Source: a virus. From it: a stretch of DNA of 46,602 nt. Positions 870 to 14,238 of this stretch are shown in pieces. A model generated the notes under the pieces. It searched no databases, was not told where the DNA came from, and was given only the letters and a program-made list of their open reading frames with translations. The number at the start of each line of letters is the position of its first letter. Position 1 is the first letter of the stretch. The stretch lies in UHGV virus genome UHGV-0186543. The stretch is one strand, 5' to 3'. The position numbers and the translations under genes are program-made.

Positions 870-982
870 TCATCTGGTGGTGAACTGTGCAGGGTTGGCG
901 TAACCGGCTAAGTGAACCCGGCGCTTCCGCAGAAGCCCCCACACAGCCCACCATAATGCGAATGTGGCCGTGCCTAACACAT

Positions 983-1003
983 AAAAAAACCGCTAACGCG
1001 GCT
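983..1003 (-). terminator. putative rho-independent terminator upstream of antirepressor gene
   Basis: plus-strand A-run 983-989 followed by hairpin ACCGCTAACGCGGCT; on the minus strand this is a GC stem followed by a U-run. Confidence 0.45.
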
Positions 1004-1093
1004 ATGCGTCACTTAGATATCCGGGACGCCAATCCCGGCAACCGATTTTGCGGCTGCGCGGAAACTATAGCCCCGGGCTTTTTCTAAGTCAAT

Positions 1094-2269: not shown

Positions 2270-2680
2270 TCACGTCCCTTTCTTTGCTATCGGAGTGATG
2301 GAACTCAGCAGCAGGCGACAGCGACCGGGCGCGCCAATGCGCTGTCCGGTTATCTTGTCGTAAGTTTCATGCGGTGAGGCACACCAGGTTGTCGCTGTTT
2401 CGTGGAGTTTCACTTGCCGCTCACCATTTCTGCGAATCGCGATCCCGATGTGCGTTTTACCCTTACATTTCACTGCTGGCGCTGCGGCTACGGATGCCTG
2501 ACGGGCAGGCTGAGCTGGTGTTGAAAAATTGCCTGCTTTGGGTCTTGGTACAAAAACCGCACGAGTGCGCGCACGTGGCCCGGCGTTCATATTCCACAAA
2601 ATGACGTCGAGATAGTTTTTACCGTCGTCTATGTGTCCTTTGTCCGACGGGTACTCTAATTTGCCTGAAATGGTGGTCAT
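2270..2680 (-). CDS. hypothetical phage protein
   Basis: 136-aa ORF immediately downstream of the helicase gene on the minus strand. Confidence 0.4.
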   Translation of the reverse strand: MTTISGKLEYPSDKGHIDDGKNYLDVILWNMNAGPRARTRAVFVPRPKAGNFSTPAQPARQASVAAAPAVKCKGKTHIGIAIRRNGERQVKLHETATTWCASPHETYDKITGQRIGAPGRCRLLLSSITPIAKKGT

Positions 2681-2718
2681 TGGTCTTTCCTCGGTTATTT
2701 CACGCTGGTCATGCGTGG

Positions 2719-4110: not shown

Positions 4111-5207
4111 AATGCCCCTTCCCTGGTTTTACGCAGTGTTTCTGGCTTCATCAGGTAATCAAACCCTGCCCGCCAGCCGGTGCGATATTCGCCGCCGAAA
4201 TAGAAGTCTGGGGCGTTATCGCGGAATTTTTCGAAGTAGCCGATAAATGCGCCAAGAGTTTGCGTGCGCATATGTGCCAGCAGGCGCAGGATTGCCCGAC
4301 GGCGGTCAGTATCAATTTCAGCTATAGGTAGCAGGTCGCCCAGAATCTCGTTGTAGCCCTTCACAACTTCAGCAGGGTCAACGGCAGCCTCAGCAGTGGC
4401 CCACGTCTCAGCGTCAGCCAGGTATCCGTCAAACCGGTTTACGCGGCAAATGTTCGCAGGTTTCGGAACGCTTCCGCTACGACGGCGCCATGTCGCAATA
4501 ACCCAACGAATTACTAACTGAATCTCAGCCACGCTGTAACCAGCGCGGGTGGTGGTGGCAGTTAGCAGCATGACAAACGGTTTAACGTCGCGGCAGCGGG
4601 TACCGACTTTCTCGTTGTAGTAGTTCAGAGCTTTTTGAGCGTCAGCGAGAATGATTTCCTCGCCCTCCCCCTTTTGGGGGTAAGGGGGATCTTTTATCTC
4701 TGTAGTACTCTCTGTTGTATTCTCTGTAAGAGATTGGGTCATTTTGACCTTAGCGCATGGGTCAACTTGACCTGATGCTTGGGTCACATTGACCTCTTCG
4801 ATTGGGTCAACTTGACCTAATCGATTGGCCACAGGGAATGTTGTCTCTTCAATCTTACATAACTGGGCATAATTGATTGAATACCACTTGGTTTTATCCC
4901 AGGCATCACTGTTAAAGTTCCCAGTAAATACCACATTCAATTTTTCCAGATTGGCCAGCACGCGTTTTATTGTCGACTCGCTCCAGAACGGGAATTGTTC
5001 TTGCCAATCGGTCACACTGTTGTACACCCAGTGGCGATTTTCGAAGAAATTTTGAGATGAATTCAGCCAGTAGTGGATTTGCTGTAGAACGATGGCTTCA
5101 TTCAACCCTATAGTGCATGCCAACGTGGGCAGGACCTGAAGGGGGTTTTCGTTAATCAGCAAACGACTCATACTCAGATCTCCAGAGCTTCGGCTATCTG
5201 ACGACAA
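4107..5207 (-). CDS. replication initiation protein (lambda O-like); probable true start at 5171
   Basis: 366-aa ORF directly upstream of the DnaB-like gene; contains the iteron array in its coding sequence (encoding repeated GQVDP peptide) as in lambda O; second Met at 5171 sits 2 nt after the stop of the upstream ORF. Confidence 0.7.
   Translation of the reverse strand: MSSDSRSSGDLSMSRLLINENPLQVLPTLACTIGLNEAIVLQQIHYWLNSSQNFFENRHWVYNSVTDWQEQFPFWSESTIKRVLANLEKLNVVFTGNFNSDAWDKTKWYSINYAQLCKIEETTFPVANRLGQVDPIEEVNVTQASGQVDPCAKVKMTQSLTENTTESTTEIKDPPYPQKGEGEEIILADAQKALNYYNEKVGTRCRDVKPFVMLLTATTTRAGYSVAEIQLVIRWVIATWRRRSGSVPKPANICRVNRFDGYLADAETWATAEAAVDPAEVVKGYNEILGDLLPIAEIDTDRRRAILRLLAHMRTQTLGAFIGYFEKFRDNAPDFYFGGEYRTGWRAGFDYLMKPETLRKTREGAL
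4735..4817. repeat. origin iterons: four copies of palindromic TGGGTCA-N4-TGACC at ~22-23 bp spacing, with adjacent AT-rich stretch (4691-4733)
   Basis: TGGGTCATTTTGACC (4735-4749), TGGGTCAACTTGACC (4758-4772), TGGGTCACATTGACC (4780-4794), TGGGTCAACTTGACC (4803-4817) seen directly; location inside the initiator gene matches lambdoid ori architecture. Confidence 0.7.
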
Positions 5208-5398
5208 CCGGCTTCATAGTCCGCATTGCTCAGCCCTTTGTCGCGCAACTCGACCTTCCTGGATTCATACTGCTCCCACACCGAAAGCGCGGCAGCCATA
5301 CGCCCATCAAAAATAGGTTGGATCTCTGCAACATGTGCCGGGCGTCCATTCAGGTGCCAGCCGTTACGCCAGGTAATGCGGTCAATATGTCTTAACAT
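5174..5398 (-). CDS. hypothetical small protein between cII-like gene and initiator
   Basis: 74-aa ORF; stop immediately precedes the 5171 start of the initiator. Confidence 0.4.
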   Translation of the reverse strand: MLRHIDRITWRNGWHLNGRPAHVAEIQPIFDGRMAAALSVWEQYESRKVELRDKGLSNADYEAGCRQIAEALEI

Positions 5399-5437
5399 CG
5401 GTCTTTCCTCGGTATAAGTTAAACGCTGGTCAGGCGC

Positions 5438-5914
5438 TCATGCATGGTGGCCTTGCGCAGTGCTTATCACTGCCCCTCGCGTCGCTACCAGCGCCGCTAT
5501 TGCTTCGTCAATTTCCTGGATAGTTAACTCTGGCGCGAAGTGGAGATGTACAGCGTTAATCGCTTCCACCCCTTCTTTTGCCGCCAGCGTTGCCAGCAAA
5601 ACGGGATCGCCCGGCGACTCCAGACGCGCCCGCCGTTCTGCGGGTAGCACGGCTTTCATCACACTGGCCAGCACCTGAGTTTTTCGGCGCGCCGCCGTTG
5701 TCTCGCCACGTAACCAGCGAAAGATTTTCTGCCGGTTGTTGTTGATGGCTCTCCAGTCCACGTTACCGTCCGCGTCCTCAAATTCATGTAGTCTCAACTC
5801 ATCATTGCGTCCCTGACTGAACCAGGCCCGGCAGATTTCAATTGTGACGAGTTCCTGCCCTGCCCTTGCCGCCCAGGTCAAAATCTCTTTTTGTAATTCC
5901 TCTGGGTTTTCCAT
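5438..5914 (-). CDS. cII-position regulatory protein, possibly YdaT-like
   Basis: 158-aa ORF directly downstream of the cro-like gene; C-terminal region resembles YdaT-family prophage proteins from memory; assignment tentative. Confidence 0.4.
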   Translation of the reverse strand: MENPEELQKEILTWAARAGQELVTIEICRAWFSQGRNDELRLHEFEDADGNVDWRAINNNRQKIFRWLRGETTAARRKTQVLASVMKAVLPAERRARLESPGDPVLLATLAAKEGVEAINAVHLHFAPELTIQEIDEAIAALVATRGAVISTAQGHHA

Positions 5915-6239: not shown

Positions 6240-6653
6240 ATGAGGATGAAGAATTTGATGCTTAGCGACCGTTTATCTCAAAGACGCAAACAGCTTGGTC
6301 TAACCCAACAACAGCTTGCTGATATGGTTGGAAGATCGAGTGTGAGCGTTTTTAAATGGGAAAGCGGACAAAATGAACCAAAGGGTCAGAACTTGCTGGC
6401 TTTGGCCAATGCACTTAAGTGTTCTGCCACATGGCTGCTTTTTGGTGACGAAGACCAGGCACCAACTCCGGTAGACGAATTACCAACAGAGCTGGATTCA
6501 CGTCAAAAAAGATTGTTAGAGTTATTTGATTCATTACCCGAGTCAGAAAAAGAAAAGCAACTAATTGAATTAGAAGATAAAGTTGAAAACTTTAATCGTT
6601 TATTTGAAGAGTTACTGGTTACCAGAAAGAAACTAACCCCCACCAAAAAATAA
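6240..6653 (+). CDS. CI-like phage repressor (XRE-family HTH)
   Basis: 137-aa ORF with N-terminal HTH (LTQQQLADMVGRSSVSVFKWESG); divergent from cro-like gene; alternative start at Met7 (6258). Confidence 0.75.
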   Translation: MRMKNLMLSDRLSQRRKQLGLTQQQLADMVGRSSVSVFKWESGQNEPKGQNLLALANALKCSATWLLFGDEDQAPTPVDELPTELDSRQKRLLELFDSLPESEKEKQLIELEDKVENFNRLFEELLVTRKKLTPTKK

Positions 6654-6656
6654 AAT

Positions 6657-6692
6657 AAAGGCAATGTTTTCAATGCATTGCCTTTATTTTTA
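6657..6692 (+). terminator. rho-independent terminator after repressor gene
   Basis: stem AAAGGCAATG / CATTGCCTTT followed by TTTATTTTT. Confidence 0.6.
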
Positions 6693-6702
6693 CCCCAAAT
6701 AC

Positions 6703-6749
6703 TAACCTTTGTTATAAAACGCCTTGCACATAAAATTACCTTTAGTTAT
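6703..6749 (+). promoter_or_regulatory. pL-like promoter with left operators: TAACCTTTGTTA (6703-6714) and TTACCTTTAGTTA (6736-6748); -35 TTGTTA (6709-6714), -10 TAAAAT (6731-6736)
   Basis: same TAAC-N4-GTTA operator family as the right operator region, overlapping sigma70-like hexamers. Confidence 0.5.
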
Positions 6750-7430
6750 ATTCATTCCATCAACAACGCTTACCCAGCGGCAGTTGTTCAGAAACAAGTT
6801 CTGACAGCCGGAAAGACGGCACCAAATTTTGCGCGTCGGCGCCAACACGATGACAGAGGGAAAGACTTCACCGGCATATGGCACATGTGTCGAAGCGGTC
6901 TGGATGGAAGCGGAGCCTTAACGCGTTGTCTCCATAGCAGGTAGCCGGAATGTGCAAGCCACAGCCAGGTATGAGCGATTGATTCACCATCAAGGCGATA
7001 CGGTGTGACCACCAGGGAAGAGTCCTGGCTACAACACGAGAGCGCACTTCATCGACTCAACTTTGAGCTTTGTCGTTAAATTTTGAAATGGCGGAGTGCG
7101 CTCCCGGTTGTGGTGAACAGGTGTTTAACGGGAACTCCCTGCCCGTTACCCGGTTCGATTCCGGGCGCTACACCGTAATTATTGGGACCCTCTGGTGAAA
7201 GCCAGAGCCTCTCGCAGAGAGGCGCAACGAGGAAAGACCGGGCATGACCAGCCCTGACAGCCGGAAAGACGGCACCCTTTAGATGGCAAAAGACCCGCAC
7301 AAGGCGGGCCAGTTACCCCGAACGGCGACCAAACCATTCGGATATGGTGCAAGGGACCAACCTTACACCGAGGAAAGACCAACGACAGAGCCGCTGATCG
7401 GTTCTGAGTATACCCCACCAAGGAGTCGCT

Positions 7431-7751
7431 ATGGAAGCGCGCACCATCCCAGTAACACTCTTTATTAATTATGCAACTTCAACTTTCAGCCACGAAAAGC
7501 TGCTTGTTGCGACTGTTGATATGTCAAAAAATTTTCCAGACAGGTACATCCTTCTGGAAAGCCGCGAAATTGAAATTACCGTCAACCAGCCCCAGCCAAT
7601 CGACATCATCGGTTTACAGGTCGAGCAACTGCGTGAACAAAAACAGAAAACAGTCGCCGAAGCCCAACAGCGTATTGCTGCTATCGATGACAAAATCCAG
7701 CAGTTACTTTGCATCGAATACACGCCAGATACTGATGAAATCCCCTACTAA
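7431..7751 (+). CDS. hypothetical early-left protein
   Basis: 106-aa ORF with strong SD (AAGGAG) 7 nt upstream; first sizeable ORF of the leftward operon. Confidence 0.5.
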   Translation: MEARTIPVTLFINYATSTFSHEKLLVATVDMSKNFPDRYILLESREIEITVNQPQPIDIIGLQVEQLREQKQKTVAEAQQRIAAIDDKIQQLLCIEYTPDTDEIPY

Positions 7752-7781
7752 AGACCACTGACCTGTAATGAGGAAAGACCA

Positions 7782-9995
7782 ATGACCATTTTTAACGGCT
7801 TGTTAGAAGCGAAAAAAGGCGCGCTCAAAAACGGCGCGATCCCGGCGCTGGCCATCGCCATCGACGCCCCTAACAAAAAAGTTGCCGAGAACATCATCAT
7901 CGGCAAATTGTGGGAAGCCTACCCTGACCACGGCGACAACTATTTCAAACCTAAAATCTGGGAAGATGCCCCGGGCCAACCGCGCCCAGGCGTTGGTGAG
8001 TTTGATGAGACGTTCGCCACAGAACACAGTTTTGATGGCGAAAAATGGGTAGTTAACACCCCCGTTGTAGATAGCGGTTCAGCAGATATCGCACAGGTTA
8101 ACGACCTGATGAAACTGCCGGCTCGTGAACGATTCGCCGCCGTTCTGCTGTTCAGCCACGACGCCAACGAAGTCGACAGTGAATTGCTTGCGCAGACGCG
8201 TGAATACCTGGAGATGCTCGACAACAGTGATACTGACAGTGAGGATGAGGTTGACGCATTTAACCGCATCGTTCTTGATGCCATGGTGGCGTGTAAGCCC
8301 ATCGAGTACATGCATATTGCTGGATTGAATAATCTGGTACATGCAATTTTGGCAAGTTGCGATACCCAGGAACAAAACCCGACCAGTTGGACTATCTCCA
8401 AATTTATAAAAAAATGGGTAGAGAATCCCGGTAAACGCGATGAAATGCTGCCGGAGGTAAAACCAGAAACAGCATCCGCACGTCCTTACCAACAGACTCA
8501 CGCCACACTGGATCGTGAAATTGCCTGCGCCCTGTTACCCGTTGGCCCGGAAAAAATCACCCCCAGCGTCCTGAAAGCGGCAGACGAAATAATCAGCCAG
8601 GATCGGGAGGATTTTAAACGCTGGTCAATGGCCTTGCGCACAACGGATCAGATCCTTGCCTATGACCGCGCATCAGTATTCGGTGTTATTCAGAGCGCCC
8701 CCGCAAAAGACACGTACCACTTCCCACAATCCCTGCGCAGTCACATCGACAACTGGCTGCAAGCTAACGGGCAGCGTGATGCAAATGCTGTTGAAGAGAA
8801 GCCAAAGGAAGCAGCACCAAAGGATGATGTAAAAGTCACCAACCACGGCGGCGGACGATTCTCAATTGATGGGATGATGTCAGAAACACCCTCAAATCAT
8901 GGCGAAAAAAGCGAAGCTGCAAATGCTGGAGAACGTAGTTTGCAGCAGTTGCGTGAGCGGTTTGTCACGCCTCGCCATGTGTATGACGTACCTGAAAATA
9001 ACGCCGTCTCACAGAGGGAACCTACAGCTATTACCCCGGCAGAAGAGACTCCTCCACAAGAAAAACTTAGCGAGCAGGTAAAGGATCTGGTGCAGAACGT
9101 TGACGCGCTGGTTGAGCGGATCCATACCGAAGAGCACAAGCGGCAGAATGCAATCTCAGCTATCGAAACGGAGTTAAAGGACTCCGACGACACAGATAAC
9201 CTGGCATTGTGGAAGAACGTATTCAAAACCGATGAGCGCTTCACCAGTGCTTTCTCTCAGAACGGCGGCGGCACATCCATCAACGGCACTTATATAGCGA
9301 TGAAAGCGACTCGCGAATTTGGGCCGTTTGGTATTGGCTGGGGTGTAGAGGTGGTGGAAGAGCGTTTTGATAAAGGCGCACCGATAGTTCGCAAAAAACA
9401 GGTTGGTGAAAAAATAGAATGGGATCTGATTCAAGACGGTGTTGGCGGGTACCTATGTGAAATGCACCACACCATGAAAGTTAGAGTCTGGTACATATTG
9501 AATGGAGTGCGCGGTGAGTCCGAGGCTTACGGATGCACACCTTATATCTACGACACTAAATACGGACCAACAAGCGACGGCGAAGCGCCGAAGAAATCCT
9601 GGACGGATGCTGTTAAGAAAGCGCTATCCCCTCTCGGATTCAGCGCCGATATTTTCATGGGCCTGTACGACAATCCGGAATACCGCCAGAGGAATAAAGC
9701 TGAGTTTGATATCAAGAATGCCAGCGAGAATGCGGAAGATGCTACCCGTCTGCGTAAGGAACTGGATGAGAAGCTTATCAACGTTGCCAATACGCTGGCC
9801 TCCGCGGTAACCACTAACGAAGTAAACAAGGTATTTGGCCTCATCGCCCGCGAAGTGGATGTACACCGAAAAGCAGCAGAAGCCAAAGGCGATAAAGAAT
9901 ATTCATCGTATCTGGGATCGCGCCTGCGCCGTATCACCGACATCAAAACTGAACGCCTCGCCGCCCTCACCGCTGCACAGGAGCAAACCGCATGA
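7782..9995 (+). CDS. large protein with C-terminal Rad52/Sak-like single-strand annealing domain and long acidic N-terminal extension
   Basis: 737-aa ORF; C-terminal segments REFGPFGIGWGVEV and KKSWTDAVKKALSPLGFSADIFMGLYD parallel Rad52 N-domain motifs (NEMFGYNGW; KEAVTDGLKRAL..FG) recalled from memory; preceded by conserved TAATGAGGAAAGACC translation-initiation element. Confidence 0.55.
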   Translation: MTIFNGLLEAKKGALKNGAIPALAIAIDAPNKKVAENIIIGKLWEAYPDHGDNYFKPKIWEDAPGQPRPGVGEFDETFATEHSFDGEKWVVNTPVVDSGSADIAQVNDLMKLPARERFAAVLLFSHDANEVDSELLAQTREYLEMLDNSDTDSEDEVDAFNRIVLDAMVACKPIEYMHIAGLNNLVHAILASCDTQEQNPTSWTISKFIKKWVENPGKRDEMLPEVKPETASARPYQQTHATLDREIACALLPVGPEKITPSVLKAADEIISQDREDFKRWSMALRTTDQILAYDRASVFGVIQSAPAKDTYHFPQSLRSHIDNWLQANGQRDANAVEEKPKEAAPKDDVKVTNHGGGRFSIDGMMSETPSNHGEKSEAANAGERSLQQLRERFVTPRHVYDVPENNAVSQREPTAITPAEETPPQEKLSEQVKDLVQNVDALVERIHTEEHKRQNAISAIETELKDSDDTDNLALWKNVFKTDERFTSAFSQNGGGTSINGTYIAMKATREFGPFGIGWGVEVVEERFDKGAPIVRKKQVGEKIEWDLIQDGVGGYLCEMHHTMKVRVWYILNGVRGESEAYGCTPYIYDTKYGPTSDGEAPKKSWTDAVKKALSPLGFSADIFMGLYDNPEYRQRNKAEFDIKNASENAEDATRLRKELDEKLINVANTLASAVTTNEVNKVFGLIAREVDVHRKAAEAKGDKEYSSYLGSRLRRITDIKTERLAALTAAQEQTA

Positions 9996-10561
9996 GCACC
10001 GCTATCGCTATTGCAAAAGAATATGCCAGCCTGATTGACCTGCTGGAAACCTCCGACGAACTGACGCCAGAGATGATCGCCGACACGCTTGAAGGTATGG
10101 AAGGAGAACTGGGAGACAAACTGGACGCCATGATGGTCATCTGCCGCAATTTACAGGGCAATGCCAATACCTGCGCTGAAGAAATGTCTCGCCTGGCTAC
10201 CCGTAAGACGTCCTTTGAAGACAAGGAAAAAGCAATCCGAAAGCATATGCTCGCCTGCATGCAAGCTGCTGGCCTGGATAAACTGAAAACCGCAAAAAAC
10301 ACATTTACTGATGCACAGGGGGCTATCTGGGTAATTATCGATAGCAAAGATAAGATCCCGGATGAGTATGAAGGCGTGTCACTTGTTGATGTAGAAACGG
10401 TTATTACACCAAACAAGCGAGCCATTAAAGAAGTGATTGAATCTGCGGAGGCGGTTGCCGCCGAAATACTGGCGCGTGGAGAAACACCACCAGCCGAGTT
10501 ATTAAACCCGGTACCAGGCGCACATCTGGAACGCGGCGAACGTTCACTGAGGGTACGCTAA
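9992..10561 (+). CDS. Gp157-like protein (recombinase-associated family), tentative
   Basis: 189-aa ORF overlapping stop of the annealing-protein gene; size and position match Gp157-family proteins that accompany Sak/Erf recombinases. Confidence 0.35.
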   Translation: MSTAIAIAKEYASLIDLLETSDELTPEMIADTLEGMEGELGDKLDAMMVICRNLQGNANTCAEEMSRLATRKTSFEDKEKAIRKHMLACMQAAGLDKLKTAKNTFTDAQGAIWVIIDSKDKIPDEYEGVSLVDVETVITPNKRAIKEVIESAEAVAAEILARGETPPAELLNPVPGAHLERGERSLRVR

Positions 10562-10743
10562 TGCTTAAACTCACATTAAAGCGTGGTGACGCGGTTCACC
10601 TGGTACTTGCCGATGGAACCAACGGCATTATTGAAGCACGGAGCCGCTGCGAACTTGGGCTACACCTGCCAGAAAACATTAAGGTCACTCGGGAGAAATC
10701 GGCATTCCCCCCACCAGAACTGATTACGCCTAATCAGAAATAA
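10561..10743 (+). CDS. hypothetical small protein
   Basis: 60-aa ORF; start overlaps stop of upstream gene (TAATG). Confidence 0.35.
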   Translation: MLKLTLKRGDAVHLVLADGTNGIIEARSRCELGLHLPENIKVTREKSAFPPPELITPNQK

Positions 10744-10792
10744 AAACTCACCATCGCTAGCATTGCGATTCACCAGTAACCGGAGGATCACA

Positions 10793-11017
10793 ATGCTGCG
10801 ATGGCAACCGGGAGCAACTCTGCTCTCCGCATTTGATATCAAAATTGGCCGACTGTCGGCCAGCGTCAGGAAACAGGCTGTGACCGAGTCTGATATTGCC
10901 CGTGCCTGCAAGGCGGCAGATGACGCAATAAGCTACATAATGAGGAAAGACCATGAGAAGCGATCACGACATAATCACCAGAGAAGAAATGGTCGAGCTG
11001 ACGGGAAGCCCACTTAA
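10793..11017 (+). CDS. hypothetical small protein (start set at ATG 10793 rather than the TTG at 10763)
   Basis: ATG preceded by CGGAGGA SD; overlaps the following ORF by about 65 nt, so one of the two may be spurious. Confidence 0.3.
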   Translation: MLRWQPGATLLSAFDIKIGRLSASVRKQAVTESDIARACKAADDAISYIMRKDHEKRSRHNHQRRNGRADGKPT

Positions 11018-11216
11018 ATCAAAGCAATGTGAGGCTCTTCGCCGGGCTGGAATTTTCTTCATGGAAAGGGCTGACGGGCACCCAAAAACAACCTGGGGCC
11101 ATTTCATGAACCCAATAAAATTTCGCAATTTACAGGAGGTGACGACGCGAAAAGATGATGAACCTGATTTTGGAGCAATATTTAATGGCCGGAAAGAGAA
11201 AGAACCCAGCAGATAA
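10953..11216 (+). CDS. excisionase-like small DNA-binding protein (DUF4224-like)
   Basis: 87-aa ORF immediately upstream of integrase; motif EEMVELTGSPLKSKQCEALRRAGIFF resembles DUF4224 proteins; preceded by TAATGAGGAAAGACC element. Confidence 0.5.
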   Translation: MRSDHDIITREEMVELTGSPLKSKQCEALRRAGIFFMERADGHPKTTWGHFMNPIKFRNLQEVTTRKDDEPDFGAIFNGRKEKEPSR

Positions 11217-12201
11217 CTGGATGCCGCCTCGTGTTTACCAGGGCAAAGCGGCCTACGAATTCAGGAATAAAGATAACAAAGCGATACGCCTGTGCGCATT
11301 GGATGCGCCACGATCAGCCGTATGGCTGGCATATGAAAAAGCGGTCGGTGACGAAAAAGAAAGAAATACTTTTCAGGCGCTCGCGGAACAATTCATGACC
11401 TCCCCTGATTTTATGGATTTGGCAGTCGAAACCAGGAAAGACTACACAAAATATTCCGGAAAAGTTCTGCCTGTCTTCGGGAAGATCGACCCGGATAAAA
11501 TCAAACCTGAACATATTCGGCGCTATATGGATCAACGCGGTTTATCAAGCCGAACTCAGGCAAACAGGGAAAAAAGCTTTATGTCCAGGGTATTCCGTTG
11601 GGGTTATGAACGAGGTTATGTCCAGAGGAATCCTTGTCAGGGAGTTAAGCAGTTTAAAGAGACAGCACGCGAACGTTATATTACGGATGAAGAATATCAG
11701 GCCGTTTATGAAGTATCTCCTGATGTTGTTCGCGTGGCAATGGAGATTGCCTACTTATGCGTGGCCAGACAGAGTGATGTACTTTCATTGCAGAAAGACC
11801 AGCTGTTCGATTCCGGGATCTACATTCGTCAGGGAAAAACCGGCGTTAAGCAAATCAAAGCCTGGTCGCCTCGTCTGCAGAAAGCGATAGCTCTGGCTCG
11901 TTCTCTGCCATTAAAACCGGGAATCAGTAGCCTGTTTGTGATTCATCAAACTACCGGAGGCAAGTACACCCGTGATGGTTTTAACTCTCGTTGGCGTGAT
12001 GTCAAAGCGGCAGCACAGGAAAAATATCCTCATCTGCAAATAGACTTCACATTTCATGATCTGAAAGCAAAAGGTATCTCTGATCTGGAAGGCAGCCTGG
12101 AAGAGAAGCAAGCAATTTCCGGGCATAAGAACCCACGACAGACAGCAGCATATGACCGAAAAGTTAAAGTAGTGCCCGTAGTTGGTGGCCAGAGAAAATG
12201 A
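11155..12201 (+). CDS. int: tyrosine site-specific integrase (lambda Int family)
   Basis: 348-aa ORF with C-terminal catalytic signature (HDLKAKG ... SGHKNPRQTAAYDR); ends 130 nt from the tRNA-derived att core; start may be later than 11155. Confidence 0.9.
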   Translation: MMNLILEQYLMAGKRKNPADNWMPPRVYQGKAAYEFRNKDNKAIRLCALDAPRSAVWLAYEKAVGDEKERNTFQALAEQFMTSPDFMDLAVETRKDYTKYSGKVLPVFGKIDPDKIKPEHIRRYMDQRGLSSRTQANREKSFMSRVFRWGYERGYVQRNPCQGVKQFKETARERYITDEEYQAVYEVSPDVVRVAMEIAYLCVARQSDVLSLQKDQLFDSGIYIRQGKTGVKQIKAWSPRLQKAIALARSLPLKPGISSLFVIHQTTGGKYTRDGFNSRWRDVKAAAQEKYPHLQIDFTFHDLKAKGISDLEGSLEEKQAISGHKNPRQTAAYDRKVKVVPVVGGQRK

Positions 12202-12262
12202 ATGATGATGCGTCCAGAGAAAAATCATCTTCGGACGCATCTTCGGAAATGAAAAAGAAGAT

Positions 12263-12290
12263 ACAAAAAAACCACCCGAAGGTGGTTTCA
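12263..12290 (-). terminator. putative terminator between att core and int (strongest on minus strand)
   Basis: hairpin ACCACCC-GAA-GGTGGT flanked by A-run on plus strand (U-run on minus). Confidence 0.45.
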
Positions 12291-12331
12291 CGACACTGCT
12301 TATTGCTTTGATTTTATTCTTATCTTTCCCA

Positions 12332-12387
12332 TGGTACCCGGAGCGGGACTTGAACCCGCACAGCGCGAACGCCGAGGGATTTTAAAT
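12332..12387 (-). other. attP core: 3' 56 nt of a tRNA-Leu(UAA) gene (leuZ-type), not a complete tRNA
   Basis: reverse complement reads ATTTAAAATCCCTCGGCGTTCGCGCTGTGCGGGTTCAAGTCCCGCTCCGGGTACCA, matching from anticodon loop to CCA of enterobacterial tRNA-Leu(UAA) as recalled; upstream tRNA half is absent and replaced by AT-rich phage DNA. Confidence 0.75.
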
Positions 12388-12608
12388 TGTTCGTTTTGTG
12401 CAATAAATTCAAATGATTATGGTAAATTATCCGGACATAATGGTGCGTGTGAATATCAAATAATCATATAGTTATGACACGTCTTACTCATCATCTTCTG
12501 AAGGTTTTTGGCAAAAAATGGTGATGTTTTGCGCCTTGATGTGACCAAACAGTCAGGAGCAAAGTGAGGTAAAGGGGTATGAGAAAAACTCACATACCCC
12601 AACACAAA

Positions 12609-13028
12609 TTAAAACGCAGTTGGGTGAATGCCATATTCACCGTTTGATCCATACCCTATGCGATACATCAAAGTACGATCTGTTGTCACCTTGCCCGCCT
12701 GCTCACTCATACCACCGCCACATACCCCTTTAGGCCACGCGCTGAAGACATGATCACCAATCGTTGGGTATACAACGACTTTCTGAGCTGTACCTAAATC
12801 TGCCACCTCTTTACCATCAACATAAACACGGGAAAAGCACGCGCTTCCAAAGAACCCCGAGTCACGCTTGATGATCACCTCTCCCGTACCGTCTCGTTTT
12901 TCGAGTAACACGGTACTGATAATTTGTTTTTCAGGAACAGGAGTGGCTTGTTCATTTGAGACAGGTTTTGTAGCACAACCGACAAGAGCAAGCATAATCC
13001 CACAGGCAAGAGCATTTTTAACGACCAT
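12609..13028 (-). CDS. lipoprotein moron near attP
   Basis: 139-aa ORF with signal peptide and lipobox (LALVGC); SD GGGAG upstream; sits between tail module and att site, the usual position of accessory genes. Confidence 0.55.
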   Translation of the reverse strand: MVVKNALACGIMLALVGCATKPVSNEQATPVPEKQIISTVLLEKRDGTGEVIIKRDSGFFGSACFSRVYVDGKEVADLGTAQKVVVYPTIGDHVFSAWPKGVCGGGMSEQAGKVTTDRTLMYRIGYGSNGEYGIHPTAF

Positions 13029-13194
13029 GTTTGAAAACTCCCAATATTAAAAAATGTCAGCATCTAACGATAACAACGTTCAGCACCAGAGACTCTTCGT
13101 TCTCCGGCTTACGCCTAAAAATATCGCAGGAGCCGTTTGCAGTCGACAGTCGTTAATACTAAATTCATACCCGCCACCGGCTCGCCGAGCCAAT

Positions 13195-14238
13195 TTACTC
13201 CAGAGACAGCCGAACCGAAAAGCCGTTTTCAGCAAGCGTCAGGCTCAGCGTGTTGATAGTCCAGTCCCGGTCCTCCTCGGTCCCGAATCCTTGAGTTGTG
13301 ACTTTGCATTCTGCTGTCAGCGACACTAAATCGAGCGTCGCTGGCGTCGTGTACGTCATAGAGAACTCTTTTTTAGCTGCACCGCCCTTAAGCCCTGGTG
13401 CAGCTTCTTTCGCTGCGTCGAGCGACGGCTCCACTGCTGGCCACTCGATTACAGGATCGCCGCCACTGCCTGTACGCAATTCTTTAATCTGCCCTGTTGC
13501 CGTATCGTGGTATTTGATCAGATACGTCGGCTCCGGATTTTCGCCACCGCCGCCACTATCACCGCTTTGTCCATTTCTCGAATAGCCCCAGCTGGAGTTA
13601 TCACGACGAGTTAGCGTGTAGTGCTGGAGCGGAGCACCGCTAACTGATTCGCCCGCGCCGCGCGGCAGAAATATCCAGTACCCTCCTGCGGGTTTGCTCA
13701 CCGCATCGAATCGTGTTGCTAGTCTCGACATCAGGTGCATATCTGACTCACCGACTTGATCGAGCTGCGTGATAATGTTGTCTGCAAACCGCTTTGATAC
13801 GCGAGGTTTTAGCCCGTTATCGCTCGCTATTGTTGCAACGATATTGCTGACAGTGACGTCGCTCCAGGAGCGAGTTTTTTTGCTCTGAACTGTCGGAGAG
13901 CCTTTTGATGCGTTCATCGGAGCTGCTTTTGCTGTGAAATCAACTACCCGGGGTTCACCGCCACTGCTCGCACCATCAACGATGTATACACCCTTATCAA
14001 TTATCTGATTACCGAAACCGAGCCCAATACTGATTTTTACTCCGCGGGCCGGAATTTTCAGAGTTTCAGAAACGATTGCTACGCGTAATTCGTCTGTCTG
14101 TTTACTCGAACCACCATAATCTGTGAGCGTGATATTGATCAAACCTTTTCTTATTTTATCCGTGATGTTTTCATTATCAGCAGATATATAAAAATTGGGC
14201 TTCCATGCTTCCACGCCAGTATTTACGTAATCACTCAT
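13195..14238 (-). CDS. P2 gpD-like tail protein (late control D family)
   Basis: 347-aa ORF at the distal end of a P2-ordered tail gene block (FI, FII, E, T, U, X, D). Confidence 0.55.
   Translation of the reverse strand: MSDYVNTGVEAWKPNFYISADNENITDKIRKGLINITLTDYGGSSKQTDELRVAIVSETLKIPARGVKISIGLGFGNQIIDKGVYIVDGASSGGEPRVVDFTAKAAPMNASKGSPTVQSKKTRSWSDVTVSNIVATIASDNGLKPRVSKRFADNIITQLDQVGESDMHLMSRLATRFDAVSKPAGGYWIFLPRGAGESVSGAPLQHYTLTRRDNSSWGYSRNGQSGDSGGGGENPEPTYLIKYHDTATGQIKELRTGSGGDPVIEWPAVEPSLDAAKEAAPGLKGGAAKKEFSMTYTTPATLDLVSLTAECKVTTQGFGTEEDRDWTINTLSLTLAENGFSVRLSLE

What the first reader, a model, noticed from the sequence alone, without database searches (positions are those of the whole stretch)
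6807..10952. Enrichment of the GGAAAGAC / TAATGAGGAAAGACC element in the leftward operon
GGAAAGAC occurs at least seven times on the plus strand within about 4 kb (around 6811, 6860, 7231, 7263, 7371, 7771, 10943), where roughly one or two would be expected by chance in the whole window. The extended 15-mer TAATGAGGAAAGACC is identical immediately upstream of the start codons of the annealing-protein gene (7782) and the excisionase-like gene (10953). This suggests a reused translation-initiation module or a binding motif for a common regulator, with further copies in the untranslated leader possibly acting as decoys or mini-ORF start sites.
Basis: seen in the sequence. Interest (0 to 1): 0.45.

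Follow-up and report, generated by a model that had tools for sequence, protein, structure and literature searches.

The report
Shared ribosome-site cassette, predicted antisense RNA
The repeated GGAAAGAC(C) word is real and conserved: it marks the ribosome-binding sites of four early prophage genes, and it probably serves as the common target of a previously undescribed small antisense RNA encoded on the opposite strand of the long untranslated leader.

Summary
GGAAAGAC occurs 10 times against 1.4 expected, always in the sense of local transcription. The 11-mer GAGGAAAGACC occurs 6 times exactly.

The copies fall into two separable elements.
- Class B is GGAAAGACC placed 0-4 nt before the ATG of four early genes in both divergent operons, often preceded by a covarying hairpin with a CUGACCA loop. 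Two further copies lie in the ~670-nt ORF-free leader.
- Class A is three leader hairpins with a GAAAGA loop.

Class B sits at the same genes in more than 100 related prophages from Escherichia to Serratia. Two divergent relatives carry their own variants (GGCAAGACC in phage ZF40, GGUAUAACC in a metagenomic relative). Each variant is repeated at the same genes and in the leader, which is concerted evolution.

The leader copy at 7370-7380 lies inside a ~115-nt segment that looks like a minus-strand sRNA gene:
- a conserved -10 element;
- two covarying hairpins whose wobble pairs exist only on the minus strand;
- a terminator with a conserved U-tail;
- a 5' seed complementary to the four ribosome sites.

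Expression is untested. Rivals are a protein regulator or a plain reused ribosome site. I found no description of it in Rfam or in the paper library.

The parts
2682..2692 (-). Class B module GAGGAAAGACC, followed by A then ATG, at the ribosome site of the 136-aa gene after dnaB (ORF 2270..2680)
   Evidence: Best predicted seed duplex of 232 initiation regions, -37.6 kcal/mol.
2701..2717 (-). Type-1 hairpin CACGC-AUGACCA-GCGUG upstream of the 2682 module
   Evidence: Stem covariation in 54 unique homologous hairpins.
5400..5410 (-). Class B module at the ribosome site of the 74-aa gene after ydaT (ORF 5174..5398, PHROG 2465)
   Evidence: Seed duplex -36.2 kcal/mol, rank 2 of 232.
5422..5438 (-). 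Type-1 hairpin AGCGC-CUGACCA-GCGUU directly after the ydaT stop codon
7770..7780 (+). Class B module at the ribosome site of the 737-aa recombination gene (7782..9995; PHROG 2489)
   Evidence: Seed duplex -31.1 kcal/mol, rank 3. In this window the upstream hairpin is degenerate.
10942..10952 (+). Class B module at the ribosome site of the DUF4224 excisionase-like gene (10953..11216). It lies inside an overlapping small upstream ORF.
   Evidence: Seed duplex -26.3 kcal/mol, rank 4. Conserved in L014, L139, L151, L152 and ZF40 gp03.
6725..6752 (+). Early-left promoter candidate (TGCACA-16-TATATT) with repeated operator-like ACCTTTNGTTATA. The leader RNA starts near 6760 (conserved CATCAACARCG).
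   Evidence: Equivalent promoters in L014 and ZF40.
6760..7430 (+). ORF-free, highly structured leader between the repressor gene (6240..6653) and the 106-aa gene (7431..7751)
   Evidence: No conserved ORF. MFE -253 kcal/mol, z = -4.25. No Rfam family.
6807..6820 (+). Class A hairpin 1, GCCG-GAAAGA-CGGC
   Evidence: Compensatory changes versus BUCT708.
6856..6869 (+). Class A hairpin 2, GAGG-GAAAGA-CUUC
7229..7239 (+). Leader class B copy 1 (GAGGAAAGACC). No conserved start codon. Candidate target mimic in the leader RNA.
7240..7254 (+). Leader type-1 hairpin GGGC-AUGACCA-GCCC
7260..7273 (+). Class A hairpin 3, GCCG-GAAAGA-CGGC
7287..7400 (-). Predicted ~115-nt antisense sRNA. Its 5' seed is the complement of + 7366-7398 (GUCGUUGGUCUUUCCUCGG) and contains the complement of the 7370-7380 copy. 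It has hairpins over + 7347-7370 and 7318-7341 with UUGGUC loops, and a terminator over + 7292-7310 with a UUUU tail (+ 7288-7291).
7407..7412 (-). Candidate -10 element (TATACT) of the sRNA promoter. The -35 is weak.
   Evidence: TATA[AC]T at this place in 63 of 64 unique relatives. Not picked up by the consensus promoter scan.
11435..11442 (+). GGAAAGAC inside the integrase ORF. Probably coding or chance, not part of the system.
   Evidence: No start codon nearby. Absent from the integrase of BUCT708.

Best explanation
GGAAAGACC is the conserved core of a portable translation-initiation cassette. It is placed in front of a fixed set of early genes in both divergent operons: the gene after ydaT, the gene after dnaB, the large recombination gene, and xis. 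I propose that the cassette is the common target of a ~115-nt Rho-independent sRNA transcribed from the minus strand of the last part of the early-left leader (about 7400 to 7287).

The single-stranded 5' end of the sRNA (GUCGUUGGUCUUUCCUCGG) can pair with up to about 20 nt covering the Shine-Dalgarno sequence and start codon of each cassette. Pairing would block ribosome binding. Its two hairpin loops (UUGGUC) are complementary to the GACCA in the loop of the hairpin that precedes most cassettes, which would allow a loop-loop first contact.

The plus-strand leader RNA is fully complementary to the sRNA at 7287-7400 and carries one more cassette-like site at 7229-7254. Strong early-left transcription could therefore titrate or destroy the sRNA.

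Shown:
- the motif, its positions, and its conservation;
- concerted variants;
- hairpin covariation;
- strand-specific wobble pairs;
- the terminator and the -10 element;
- the complementarity.

Inferred:
- that the minus strand is transcribed;
- that pairing represses translation;
- the sponge role of the leader;
- the kissing contact.

The three class A hairpins (GAAAGA loop) are a separate leader element of unknown role.
For: 1. Enrichment and orientation.
2. The same genes carry the cassette in unbiased relatives at 36-57% protein identity, while dnaB, gp157, ydaT, the 60-aa gene and the 106-aa gene keep other ribosome sites.
3. Concerted variants: GGCAAGA(C/U)C at gp03, gp05, gp07, gp13 and in the leader of ZF40; GGUAUAACC at three genes and in the leader of L137.
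4. The seed of a genome pairs better with that genome's own targets than with those of other genomes: -31.3 versus -26.1 kcal/mol, and it ranks 1-2 of 13 for 14 of 23 targets.
5. The strand of the two hairpins next to the leader copy: wobble pairs on the minus strand against A.C are 17:1 and 35:4. An independent census gave 19:1 and 35:2, against about 2.5:1 expected from composition.
6. Minus-strand alignment: 85% of cells paired, 22 pairs with changes on both sides, covariation score 0.383 versus 0.198 in shuffles, 0 of 500 shuffles as high.
7. The A-tract 5' of hairpin Ha is invariant, which is the U-tail on the minus strand.
8. TATA[AC]T is present on the minus strand in 63 of 64 unique relatives.
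9. The four cassette genes rank 1-4 of 232 initiation regions for pairing with the seed.
10. The covariance model finds one full copy, at 7272-7408(-), 148 bits.
Against: - There is no expression data.
- The -35 is poor, and the consensus promoter scan finds no minus-strand promoter here.
- Most of the folding-energy advantage of the minus strand is explained by base composition: -8.8 of -13.6 kcal/mol.
- The ranking of targets follows by construction from the shared word.
- In this window the U-tail has only four U.
- Hairpin Hc favours the plus strand, so the 5' end of the sRNA is uncertain.
- The co-variation rests on three major lineages plus small variants, and the sequences are phylogenetically related.
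- A protein that reads the same word would explain the conservation equally well, though not the strand bias.
Confidence: 0.55

Rival explanations
1. A phage-encoded RNA-binding protein recognises GGAAAGACC, and perhaps the GACCA loops. It would act as a translational operator system like T4 RegA or CsrA, with the leader copies as decoys. Candidates are the always-linked 60-aa and 106-aa proteins of the left operon.
For: - The 60-aa protein is present in all 75 loci with room downstream of gp157.
- It aligns in register with CsrA (Pfam PF02599, positions 1-45). CsrA is the commonest family hit, in 11 of 22 relatives, with a best E-value of 9e-4.
- The motif follows the left operon even where the right operon is replaced (L151).
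- The invariant part of the word (AAAGACC) lies outside the anti-SD pairing region.
Against: - The CsrA score is 13 bits against a cut-off of 27.
- hhalign probability is 6%.
- The fold of the 106-aa protein is uninformative.
- A protein does not explain why the hairpins beside the leader copy carry wobble pairs only on the minus strand, nor the minus-strand terminator and -10 element.
Confidence: 0.15
2. The word is simply a very good ribosome-binding cassette copied between genes. Leader copies would be non-initiating ribosome standby or stabilising sites, and no dedicated regulator exists.
For: - GAGGA is a good Shine-Dalgarno sequence at 6-7 nt from the ATG.
- Leader copies often lack a start codon, as in mRNA-stabilising SD-like sites (own knowledge).
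Against: - The least conserved part is the SD-proximal GA, while AAAGACC is invariant from Escherichia to Serratia.
- Other genes of the same phages use different, equally conserved ribosome sites.
- Genome-specific variants change at all copies together.
Confidence: 0.12
3. The hairpins and the word are nut/put-like RNA sites for processive transcription antitermination, or sites that control Rho.
For: - Short GC hairpins with purine-rich (GAAAGA) or U-turn-like (CUGACCA) loops resemble lambda, P22 and phi21 boxB (own knowledge).
- They sit after the cro/cII-like genes and in the early-left leader.
- Leaders of relatives contain intrinsic terminators.
Against: - No boxA-like element was seen.
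- No arginine-rich N-like protein was seen among the translated early proteins.
- In short leaders the sites lie downstream of the first terminator.
- This window's leader has no canonical plus-strand terminator.
- The exact spacing to start codons is unexplained.
Confidence: 0.05
4. At the DNA level, the conserved short sequences at gene boundaries are recombination linkers, or are products of gene conversion that drive mosaicism.
For: - The genes downstream of the dnaB-proximal cassette differ between relatives.
- The phage encodes its own recombination genes.
Against: - The hairpin stems covary rather than stay identical.
- The copies are strictly in the sense of transcription.
- The 9-mer is conserved while the flanks diverge.
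- Direct repeats would promote deletions (inference).
Confidence: 0.05

Closest known systems
C4 antisense RNA of phages P1/P7 (Rfam RF01695) and its a/b target sites
   Same: It is a phage-encoded structured antisense RNA whose exposed sequences pair with repeated target boxes that overlap a ribosome-binding site, and it controls early or antirepressor functions. A true C4/isrK copy lies elsewhere in this window, at 873-1070(-).
   Different: There is no sequence or model similarity at the leader. The predicted RNA has its own terminator and lies antisense to the leader, and is not processed from the target transcript. Its targets are at least four initiation regions in two divergent operons.
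P22 sar RNA, lambda OOP RNA and P4 CI RNA (own knowledge)
   Same: These are small phage antisense RNAs that act within the immunity or early region to damp early gene expression.
   Different: sar and OOP act only on the overlapping (cis) transcript. CI acts through premature termination. Here the same seed would act in trans on a reused ribosome-site cassette.
Trans-acting enterobacterial sRNAs with a 5' seed and Rho-independent terminator, and prophage sRNAs such as DicF (own knowledge)
   Same: The architecture matches: 5' single-stranded seed, two hairpins, then a terminator with a U-tail. The seed pairs across the SD and start codon of several mRNAs.
   Different: The targets are the phage's own genes. 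The target sites are near-identical cassettes that co-vary with the seed. Dependence on Hfq or ProQ is unknown.
CsrA/CsrB and T4 RegA translational operator systems
   Same: One factor reads a short word at many ribosome sites. Multi-copy non-coding sites could titrate it.
   Different: Membership of the 60-aa protein in CsrA is not supported. The strand-specific structure points to an RNA regulator.
lambda/P22/phi21 nut (boxA-boxB) sites
   Same: Both are short GC hairpins with conserved loops in early transcripts.
   Different: There is no boxA and no N-like protein was found. The sites are tied to start codons.

Membership tests
Shine-Dalgarno translation-initiation region | Purine-rich SD 5-10 nt upstream of the start codon of a real gene | tested here: met
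   GAGGA lies 6-8 nt before the ATG of four ORFs that have PHROG or Pfam support.
Rho-independent trans-acting antisense sRNA (generic class) | Conserved secondary structure with covariation on the proposed strand | tested here: met
   85% of cells paired, 22 pairs with changes on both sides, 0 of 500 shuffles as high. Wobble pairs are specific to the minus strand.
Rho-independent trans-acting antisense sRNA (generic class) | Intrinsic terminator (GC hairpin plus U-tract) at the 3' end | tested here: met
   The hairpin over + 7292-7310 is followed on the minus strand by UUUU here and by 6-7 U in many relatives. The A-tract is invariant in A6.
Rho-independent trans-acting antisense sRNA (generic class) | Own promoter | tested here: inconclusive
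   The -10 element TATA[AC]T is conserved in 63 of 64 relatives, with an extended -10 in one lineage. The -35 is poor and the consensus scan gives no hit.
Rho-independent trans-acting antisense sRNA (generic class) | Seed complementary to target initiation regions, co-varying with them | tested here: met
   Lineage-specific variants appear in ZF40 and L137.
Rho-independent trans-acting antisense sRNA (generic class) | The RNA is expressed and represses its targets | not testable with these tools
   This needs RNA-seq or northern blots, and reporter assays.
C4 antisense RNA (RF01695) | Match to the Rfam covariance model | tested here: not met
   No hit in 6600-7500 even at E<=10. The true C4 copy is at 873-958(-).
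CsrA (PF02599), for the 60-aa protein 10561..10743 | Score above the Pfam gathering threshold | tested here: not met
   13 bits against 27. The best relative reaches E = 9e-4.
CsrA (PF02599), for the 60-aa protein 10561..10743 | CsrA fold | tested here: not met
nut site (boxA + boxB) | A boxA (CGCUCUUA-like) upstream of the hairpin, and an N-type arginine-rich protein | tested here: not met
   No boxA-like word lies next to the hairpins. No arginine-rich small protein appears among the translated early proteins. This was checked by eye only.

The most novel reading that the evidence does not exclude
A widespread clade of enterobacterial temperate phages runs an RNA-based second layer of early-gene control. 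One antisense sRNA, encoded opposite the early-left leader, would hold down replication, recombination and excision genes in both divergent operons. It would do so by pairing with a portable ribosome-site cassette that co-evolves with its seed. The long leader transcript would act as its sponge when the lytic promoter fires. The clade's leader matches about 8% of complete E. coli genomes and occurs in Klebsiella, Enterobacter, Citrobacter, Serratia, Pectobacterium and others.
Probability: 0.45. Interest if true: 0.78.

Novelty: new variant of a known kind. Interest (0 to 1): 0.66.

Why it matters
If the predicted sRNA is real, it defines a new phage RNA family and a compact, self-contained sRNA regulon. 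The target sites are near-identical cassettes, so seed-target co-variation is directly readable from genomes.

It would add an RNA layer to the lysis-lysogeny switch of a common but almost unstudied prophage group. Only BUCT708/709 and ZF40 are isolated phages among its members.

It is easy to test with a northern blot and four reporter fusions. It would also offer an orthogonal sRNA-cassette pair for synthetic control of several genes at once.

Even if the regulator turns out to be a protein, the conserved cassette marks a co-regulated gene set.

Tried and rejected
- **Rfam.** The gathering-threshold scan of the window and the E<=10 scan of the leader found nothing in the leader.
- **tRNA or tmRNA.** ARAGORN was negative.
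- **rRNA mimicry.** GGAAAGACC equals 23S rRNA 2056-2064, and AUGACCAGCC equals 16S rRNA 303-312. However, the leader shares 9-mers with rRNA barely more often than shuffles do (23 versus 13.6, P = 0.05). I treat this as chance.
- **A complementary copy in sense orientation elsewhere in the window or in L137.** None was found. The complement exists only opposite the motif copies themselves, which led to the antisense-gene idea.
- **Folding-energy asymmetry as a strand test.** It is largely a composition effect, so I used wobble-pair counts instead.
- **Literature string searches for the motif and the seed.** No relevant paper was found.


Full report
**Observation**

GGAAAGAC occurs 10 times in the window, against 1.36 expected from dinucleotide shuffles (maximum 5; 0 of 100 shuffles reach 10). 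Eight copies are on the plus strand (6810, 6859, 7231, 7263, 7372, 7772, 10944, 11435). Two are on the minus strand (2683, 5401). Every copy is in the sense of the local genes.

The 15-mer TAATGAGGAAAGACC is exact at 7766 and 10938, directly before the ATGs at 7782 and 10953. GAGGAAAGACC occurs six times exactly. There are no one-mismatch copies, and two-mismatch copies occur at chance level.

**Context**

The region is the immunity and early region of a prophage.
- On the minus strand lie YdaS-like, YdaT-like, RepO and DnaB genes.
- On the plus strand lie an HTH repressor (6240..6653), a terminator, about 740 nt without a conserved ORF, and then these genes:
  - a 106-aa gene;
  - a 737-aa recombination gene (PHROG 2489);
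  - a Gp157-like gene;
  - a 60-aa gene;
  - a DUF4224 excisionase-like gene;
  - an integrase.

In E. coli GF131 the same prophage sits next to tRNA-Leu/Cys/Gly and pgsA. The leader matches 449 of 5426 complete E. coli genomes.

**Two elements share the 8-mer**

*Class B.* This is GGAAAGACC placed 0-4 nt before a start codon. It occurs at ORFs 2270..2680(-), 5174..5398(-), 7782..9995(+) and 10953..11216(+). Two more copies lie in the leader, at 7229 and 7370.

Most intercistronic copies are preceded, 10-35 nt upstream, by a 4-6 bp GC hairpin with the loop (C/A)UGACCA. In 54 unique hairpins the stem covaries:
- covariation score 0.273 versus 0.160 in shuffles, with 0 of 500 shuffles as high;
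- slid controls score at most 0.158.

*Class A.* This is three leader hairpins with a GAAAGA loop (6807-6820, 6856-6869, 7260-7273). They show compensatory stem changes relative to phage BUCT708. They form in the minimum-energy fold of the leader (z = -4.25).

**Conservation**

I also examined relatives found independently of the motif, through the 60-aa or 106-aa proteins. They come from Escherichia, Raoultella, Citrobacter, Enterobacter, Rosenbergiella and Serratia. In all of them except L137, GGAAAGACC tops or nearly tops the list of over-represented 9-mers of the early region. It stands before the homologues of the same genes at 36-57% protein identity. DnaB, Gp157, YdaT, the 60-aa gene and the 106-aa gene keep different ribosome sites of their own.

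**Concerted variants**

Two divergent relatives have replaced the word at all positions together.
- The metagenomic prophage L137 has AGGUAUAACCAAUGACC at three genes and in its leader.
- Pectobacterium phage ZF40 has GGCAAGA(C/U)C at gp03 (xis), gp05, gp07 and gp13, and twice in its leader.

Both keep a class A-like GGAAAGAC stretch in the leader, so class A and class B are separable. Smaller variants (UAGG......ACCGA) are also shared between the leader copy and the targets of the same genome.

**A gene on the other strand**

The leader copy at 7370-7380 sits in the most conserved 150 nt of the leader. It is flanked by two hairpins with invariant GACCAA loops and strong covariation.

The non-Watson-Crick positions in these hairpins are A.C on the plus strand. 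These are G.U on the minus strand.
- In one count the ratios were 17:1 and 35:4.
- In an independent census they were 19:1 and 35:2, against roughly 2.5:1 expected from composition.
- The hairpin next to the 106-aa ribosome site shows the opposite bias, 6:16.

On the minus strand the segment ends in a GC hairpin followed by a U-tract. The corresponding A-tract is invariant in the plus-strand alignment. The segment begins just downstream of TATA[AC]T, which is present in 63 of 64 unique relatives, including ZF40 and the L137 type.

The minus-strand alignment gives 85% paired cells, 22 pairs with changes on both sides, and a covariation score of 0.383 versus 0.198 in shuffles, with 0 of 500 shuffles as high. 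A covariance model built from it finds one full copy in the window, at 7272-7408(-), with 148 bits.

The raw folding-energy advantage of the minus strand was seen in 82 of 83 sequences. It is mostly a composition effect, so I do not rely on it.

**Pairing**

The predicted 5' single-stranded part (…GUCGUUGGUCUUUCCUCGG…) is complementary to the cassettes across the SD and the start codon. For the 136-aa gene the predicted duplex is about 20 bp and includes a G.U pair at the U of AUG.

Among 232 ORF initiation regions of the window, the four cassette genes rank 1-4. Their energies are -37.6, -36.2, -31.1 and -26.3 kcal/mol, against a mean of -13.7 and an sd of 4.6. This partly follows from the shared word.

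Across 13 genomes, a genome's own seed pairs better with its own targets than with the targets of other genomes (-31.3 versus -26.1 kcal/mol). It ranks first or second of 13 for 14 of 23 targets.

The sRNA loops (UUGGUC) are complementary to the GACCA of the target hairpin loops. This suggests a kissing contact, which is an inference.

**Interpretation**

The best reading (about 0.55) is a phage sRNA regulon. One antisense sRNA is encoded opposite the early-left leader. It represses translation of early replication, recombination and excision genes through a reused, co-evolving ribosome-site cassette. The plus-strand leader is complementary to the sRNA and carries a further cassette-like site at 7229-7254, so it could titrate the sRNA when the early-left promoter fires.

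Expression, repression and the sponge role are not shown. The promoter has a weak -35 and is not detected by the consensus scan.

**Rivals**

- *A plain optimised ribosome site.* This does not explain the invariant spacer or the concerted variants.
- *nut-like antitermination or recombination linkers.* These fit the data less well. Details are in the rival entries.

**Comparison and novelty**

The system works like the antisense immunity RNAs of P1/P7 (C4), P4 (CI) and P22 (sar). It is not a member of the C4 family. It differs by acting in trans on several near-identical cassettes in two operons.

No Rfam family matches, and no paper in the searchable library contains the motif or seed strings in a relevant context. 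Among isolated phages in the collection, the 106-aa gene occurs only in BUCT708/709. ZF40 carries a divergent version of the whole system.

Noticed in passing
window 6872-7043 (+): A ~170-nt module lies inside the leader. It is absent from the short (351-nt) leaders of relatives. It is 70-77% identical to unannotated intergenic DNA of unrelated phages: Uetakevirus SPN1S, Tyrion, PAT1 and BUCT554 between the terminase and portal genes; P1-like SJ46 and D6; and Klebsiella SopranoGao, ST512-KPC3phi13.3 and ST11-OXA245phi3.2. RNAalifold on 11 copies predicts a long-range helix and two hairpins, and 4 of the 30 predicted pairs show compensatory changes. There is no Rfam hit. It looks like an undescribed mobile structured RNA.
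   Followed up: partly
window 7115-7170 (+); ZF40 record 5469-5522: A tRNA-like T-arm segment (GGTTCGATTCCGGGCGC) lies in the leader and is 86% identical to the equivalent place in the ZF40 leader. ARAGORN finds no tRNA, and there is only a 17-bit tRNA-Sec hit.
   Followed up: partly
window 873-1070 (-): Full-length matches to C4 antisense RNA, its a1/b1 target element, and isrK (75, 53 and 80 bits). This is a P1/P7-type immI-like RNA module in the same prophage.
   Followed up: no
window 10561-10743 (+): The 60-aa protein (PHROG 2482) is always found after the Gp157-like gene. It aligns in register with CsrA (M1 L2 L4 T5 G9 D10 P37 V42 R44) but below all thresholds. ZF40 gp05 is a homologue, and there it carries the cassette itself.
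   Followed up: yes
window 10794-11017 (+), listed as ORF 10763..11017: A small ORF overlaps the xis start out of frame, so the xis cassette lies inside its coding sequence (…IMRKDHE…). Homologues are called in relatives (ZF40 gp04, and 66-69-aa genes in L014 and L139).
   Followed up: partly
window 7231-7239, 7372-7380 and 7244-7253: GGAAAGACC is identical to E. coli 23S rRNA 2056-2064, the A2058 macrolide/Erm/TLR13 site. AUGACCAGCC is identical to 16S rRNA 303-312. Overall sharing of 9-mers between the leader and rRNA is only borderline above shuffles (P = 0.05), so I treat this as coincidence.
   Followed up: yes
L001 8650-8700; L139, L146, L152 and L032 leaders (columns 126-150 of alignment A6): In several relatives the class A hairpin keeps its stem (GCCGG/CCGGC), but its loop is AUAACGUAA or AAACGUAA in place of GAAAGA.
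   Followed up: no
L014 6380-6410 and 6480-6510; BUCT708, GF131 and L139 leaders: Leaders of many relatives contain one or two plus-strand intrinsic terminators before the first gene. This window's leader lacks the first one.
   Followed up: partly
L002 (OM816834.1, 'Stenotrophomonas' phage BUCT708): This phage and BUCT709 share the whole early region with enterobacterial prophages (78% identity in the leader). They are the only isolated phages in the collection with the 106-aa gene. Their stated Stenotrophomonas host is surprising for that reason.
   Followed up: no
L151 (Raoultella scottii) 9700-13600: This is a hybrid or remnant prophage. It keeps the leader, sRNA region, left operon and cassettes, but lacks the ydaT, 74-aa and 136-aa genes. 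The system therefore travels with the left operon.
   Followed up: partly
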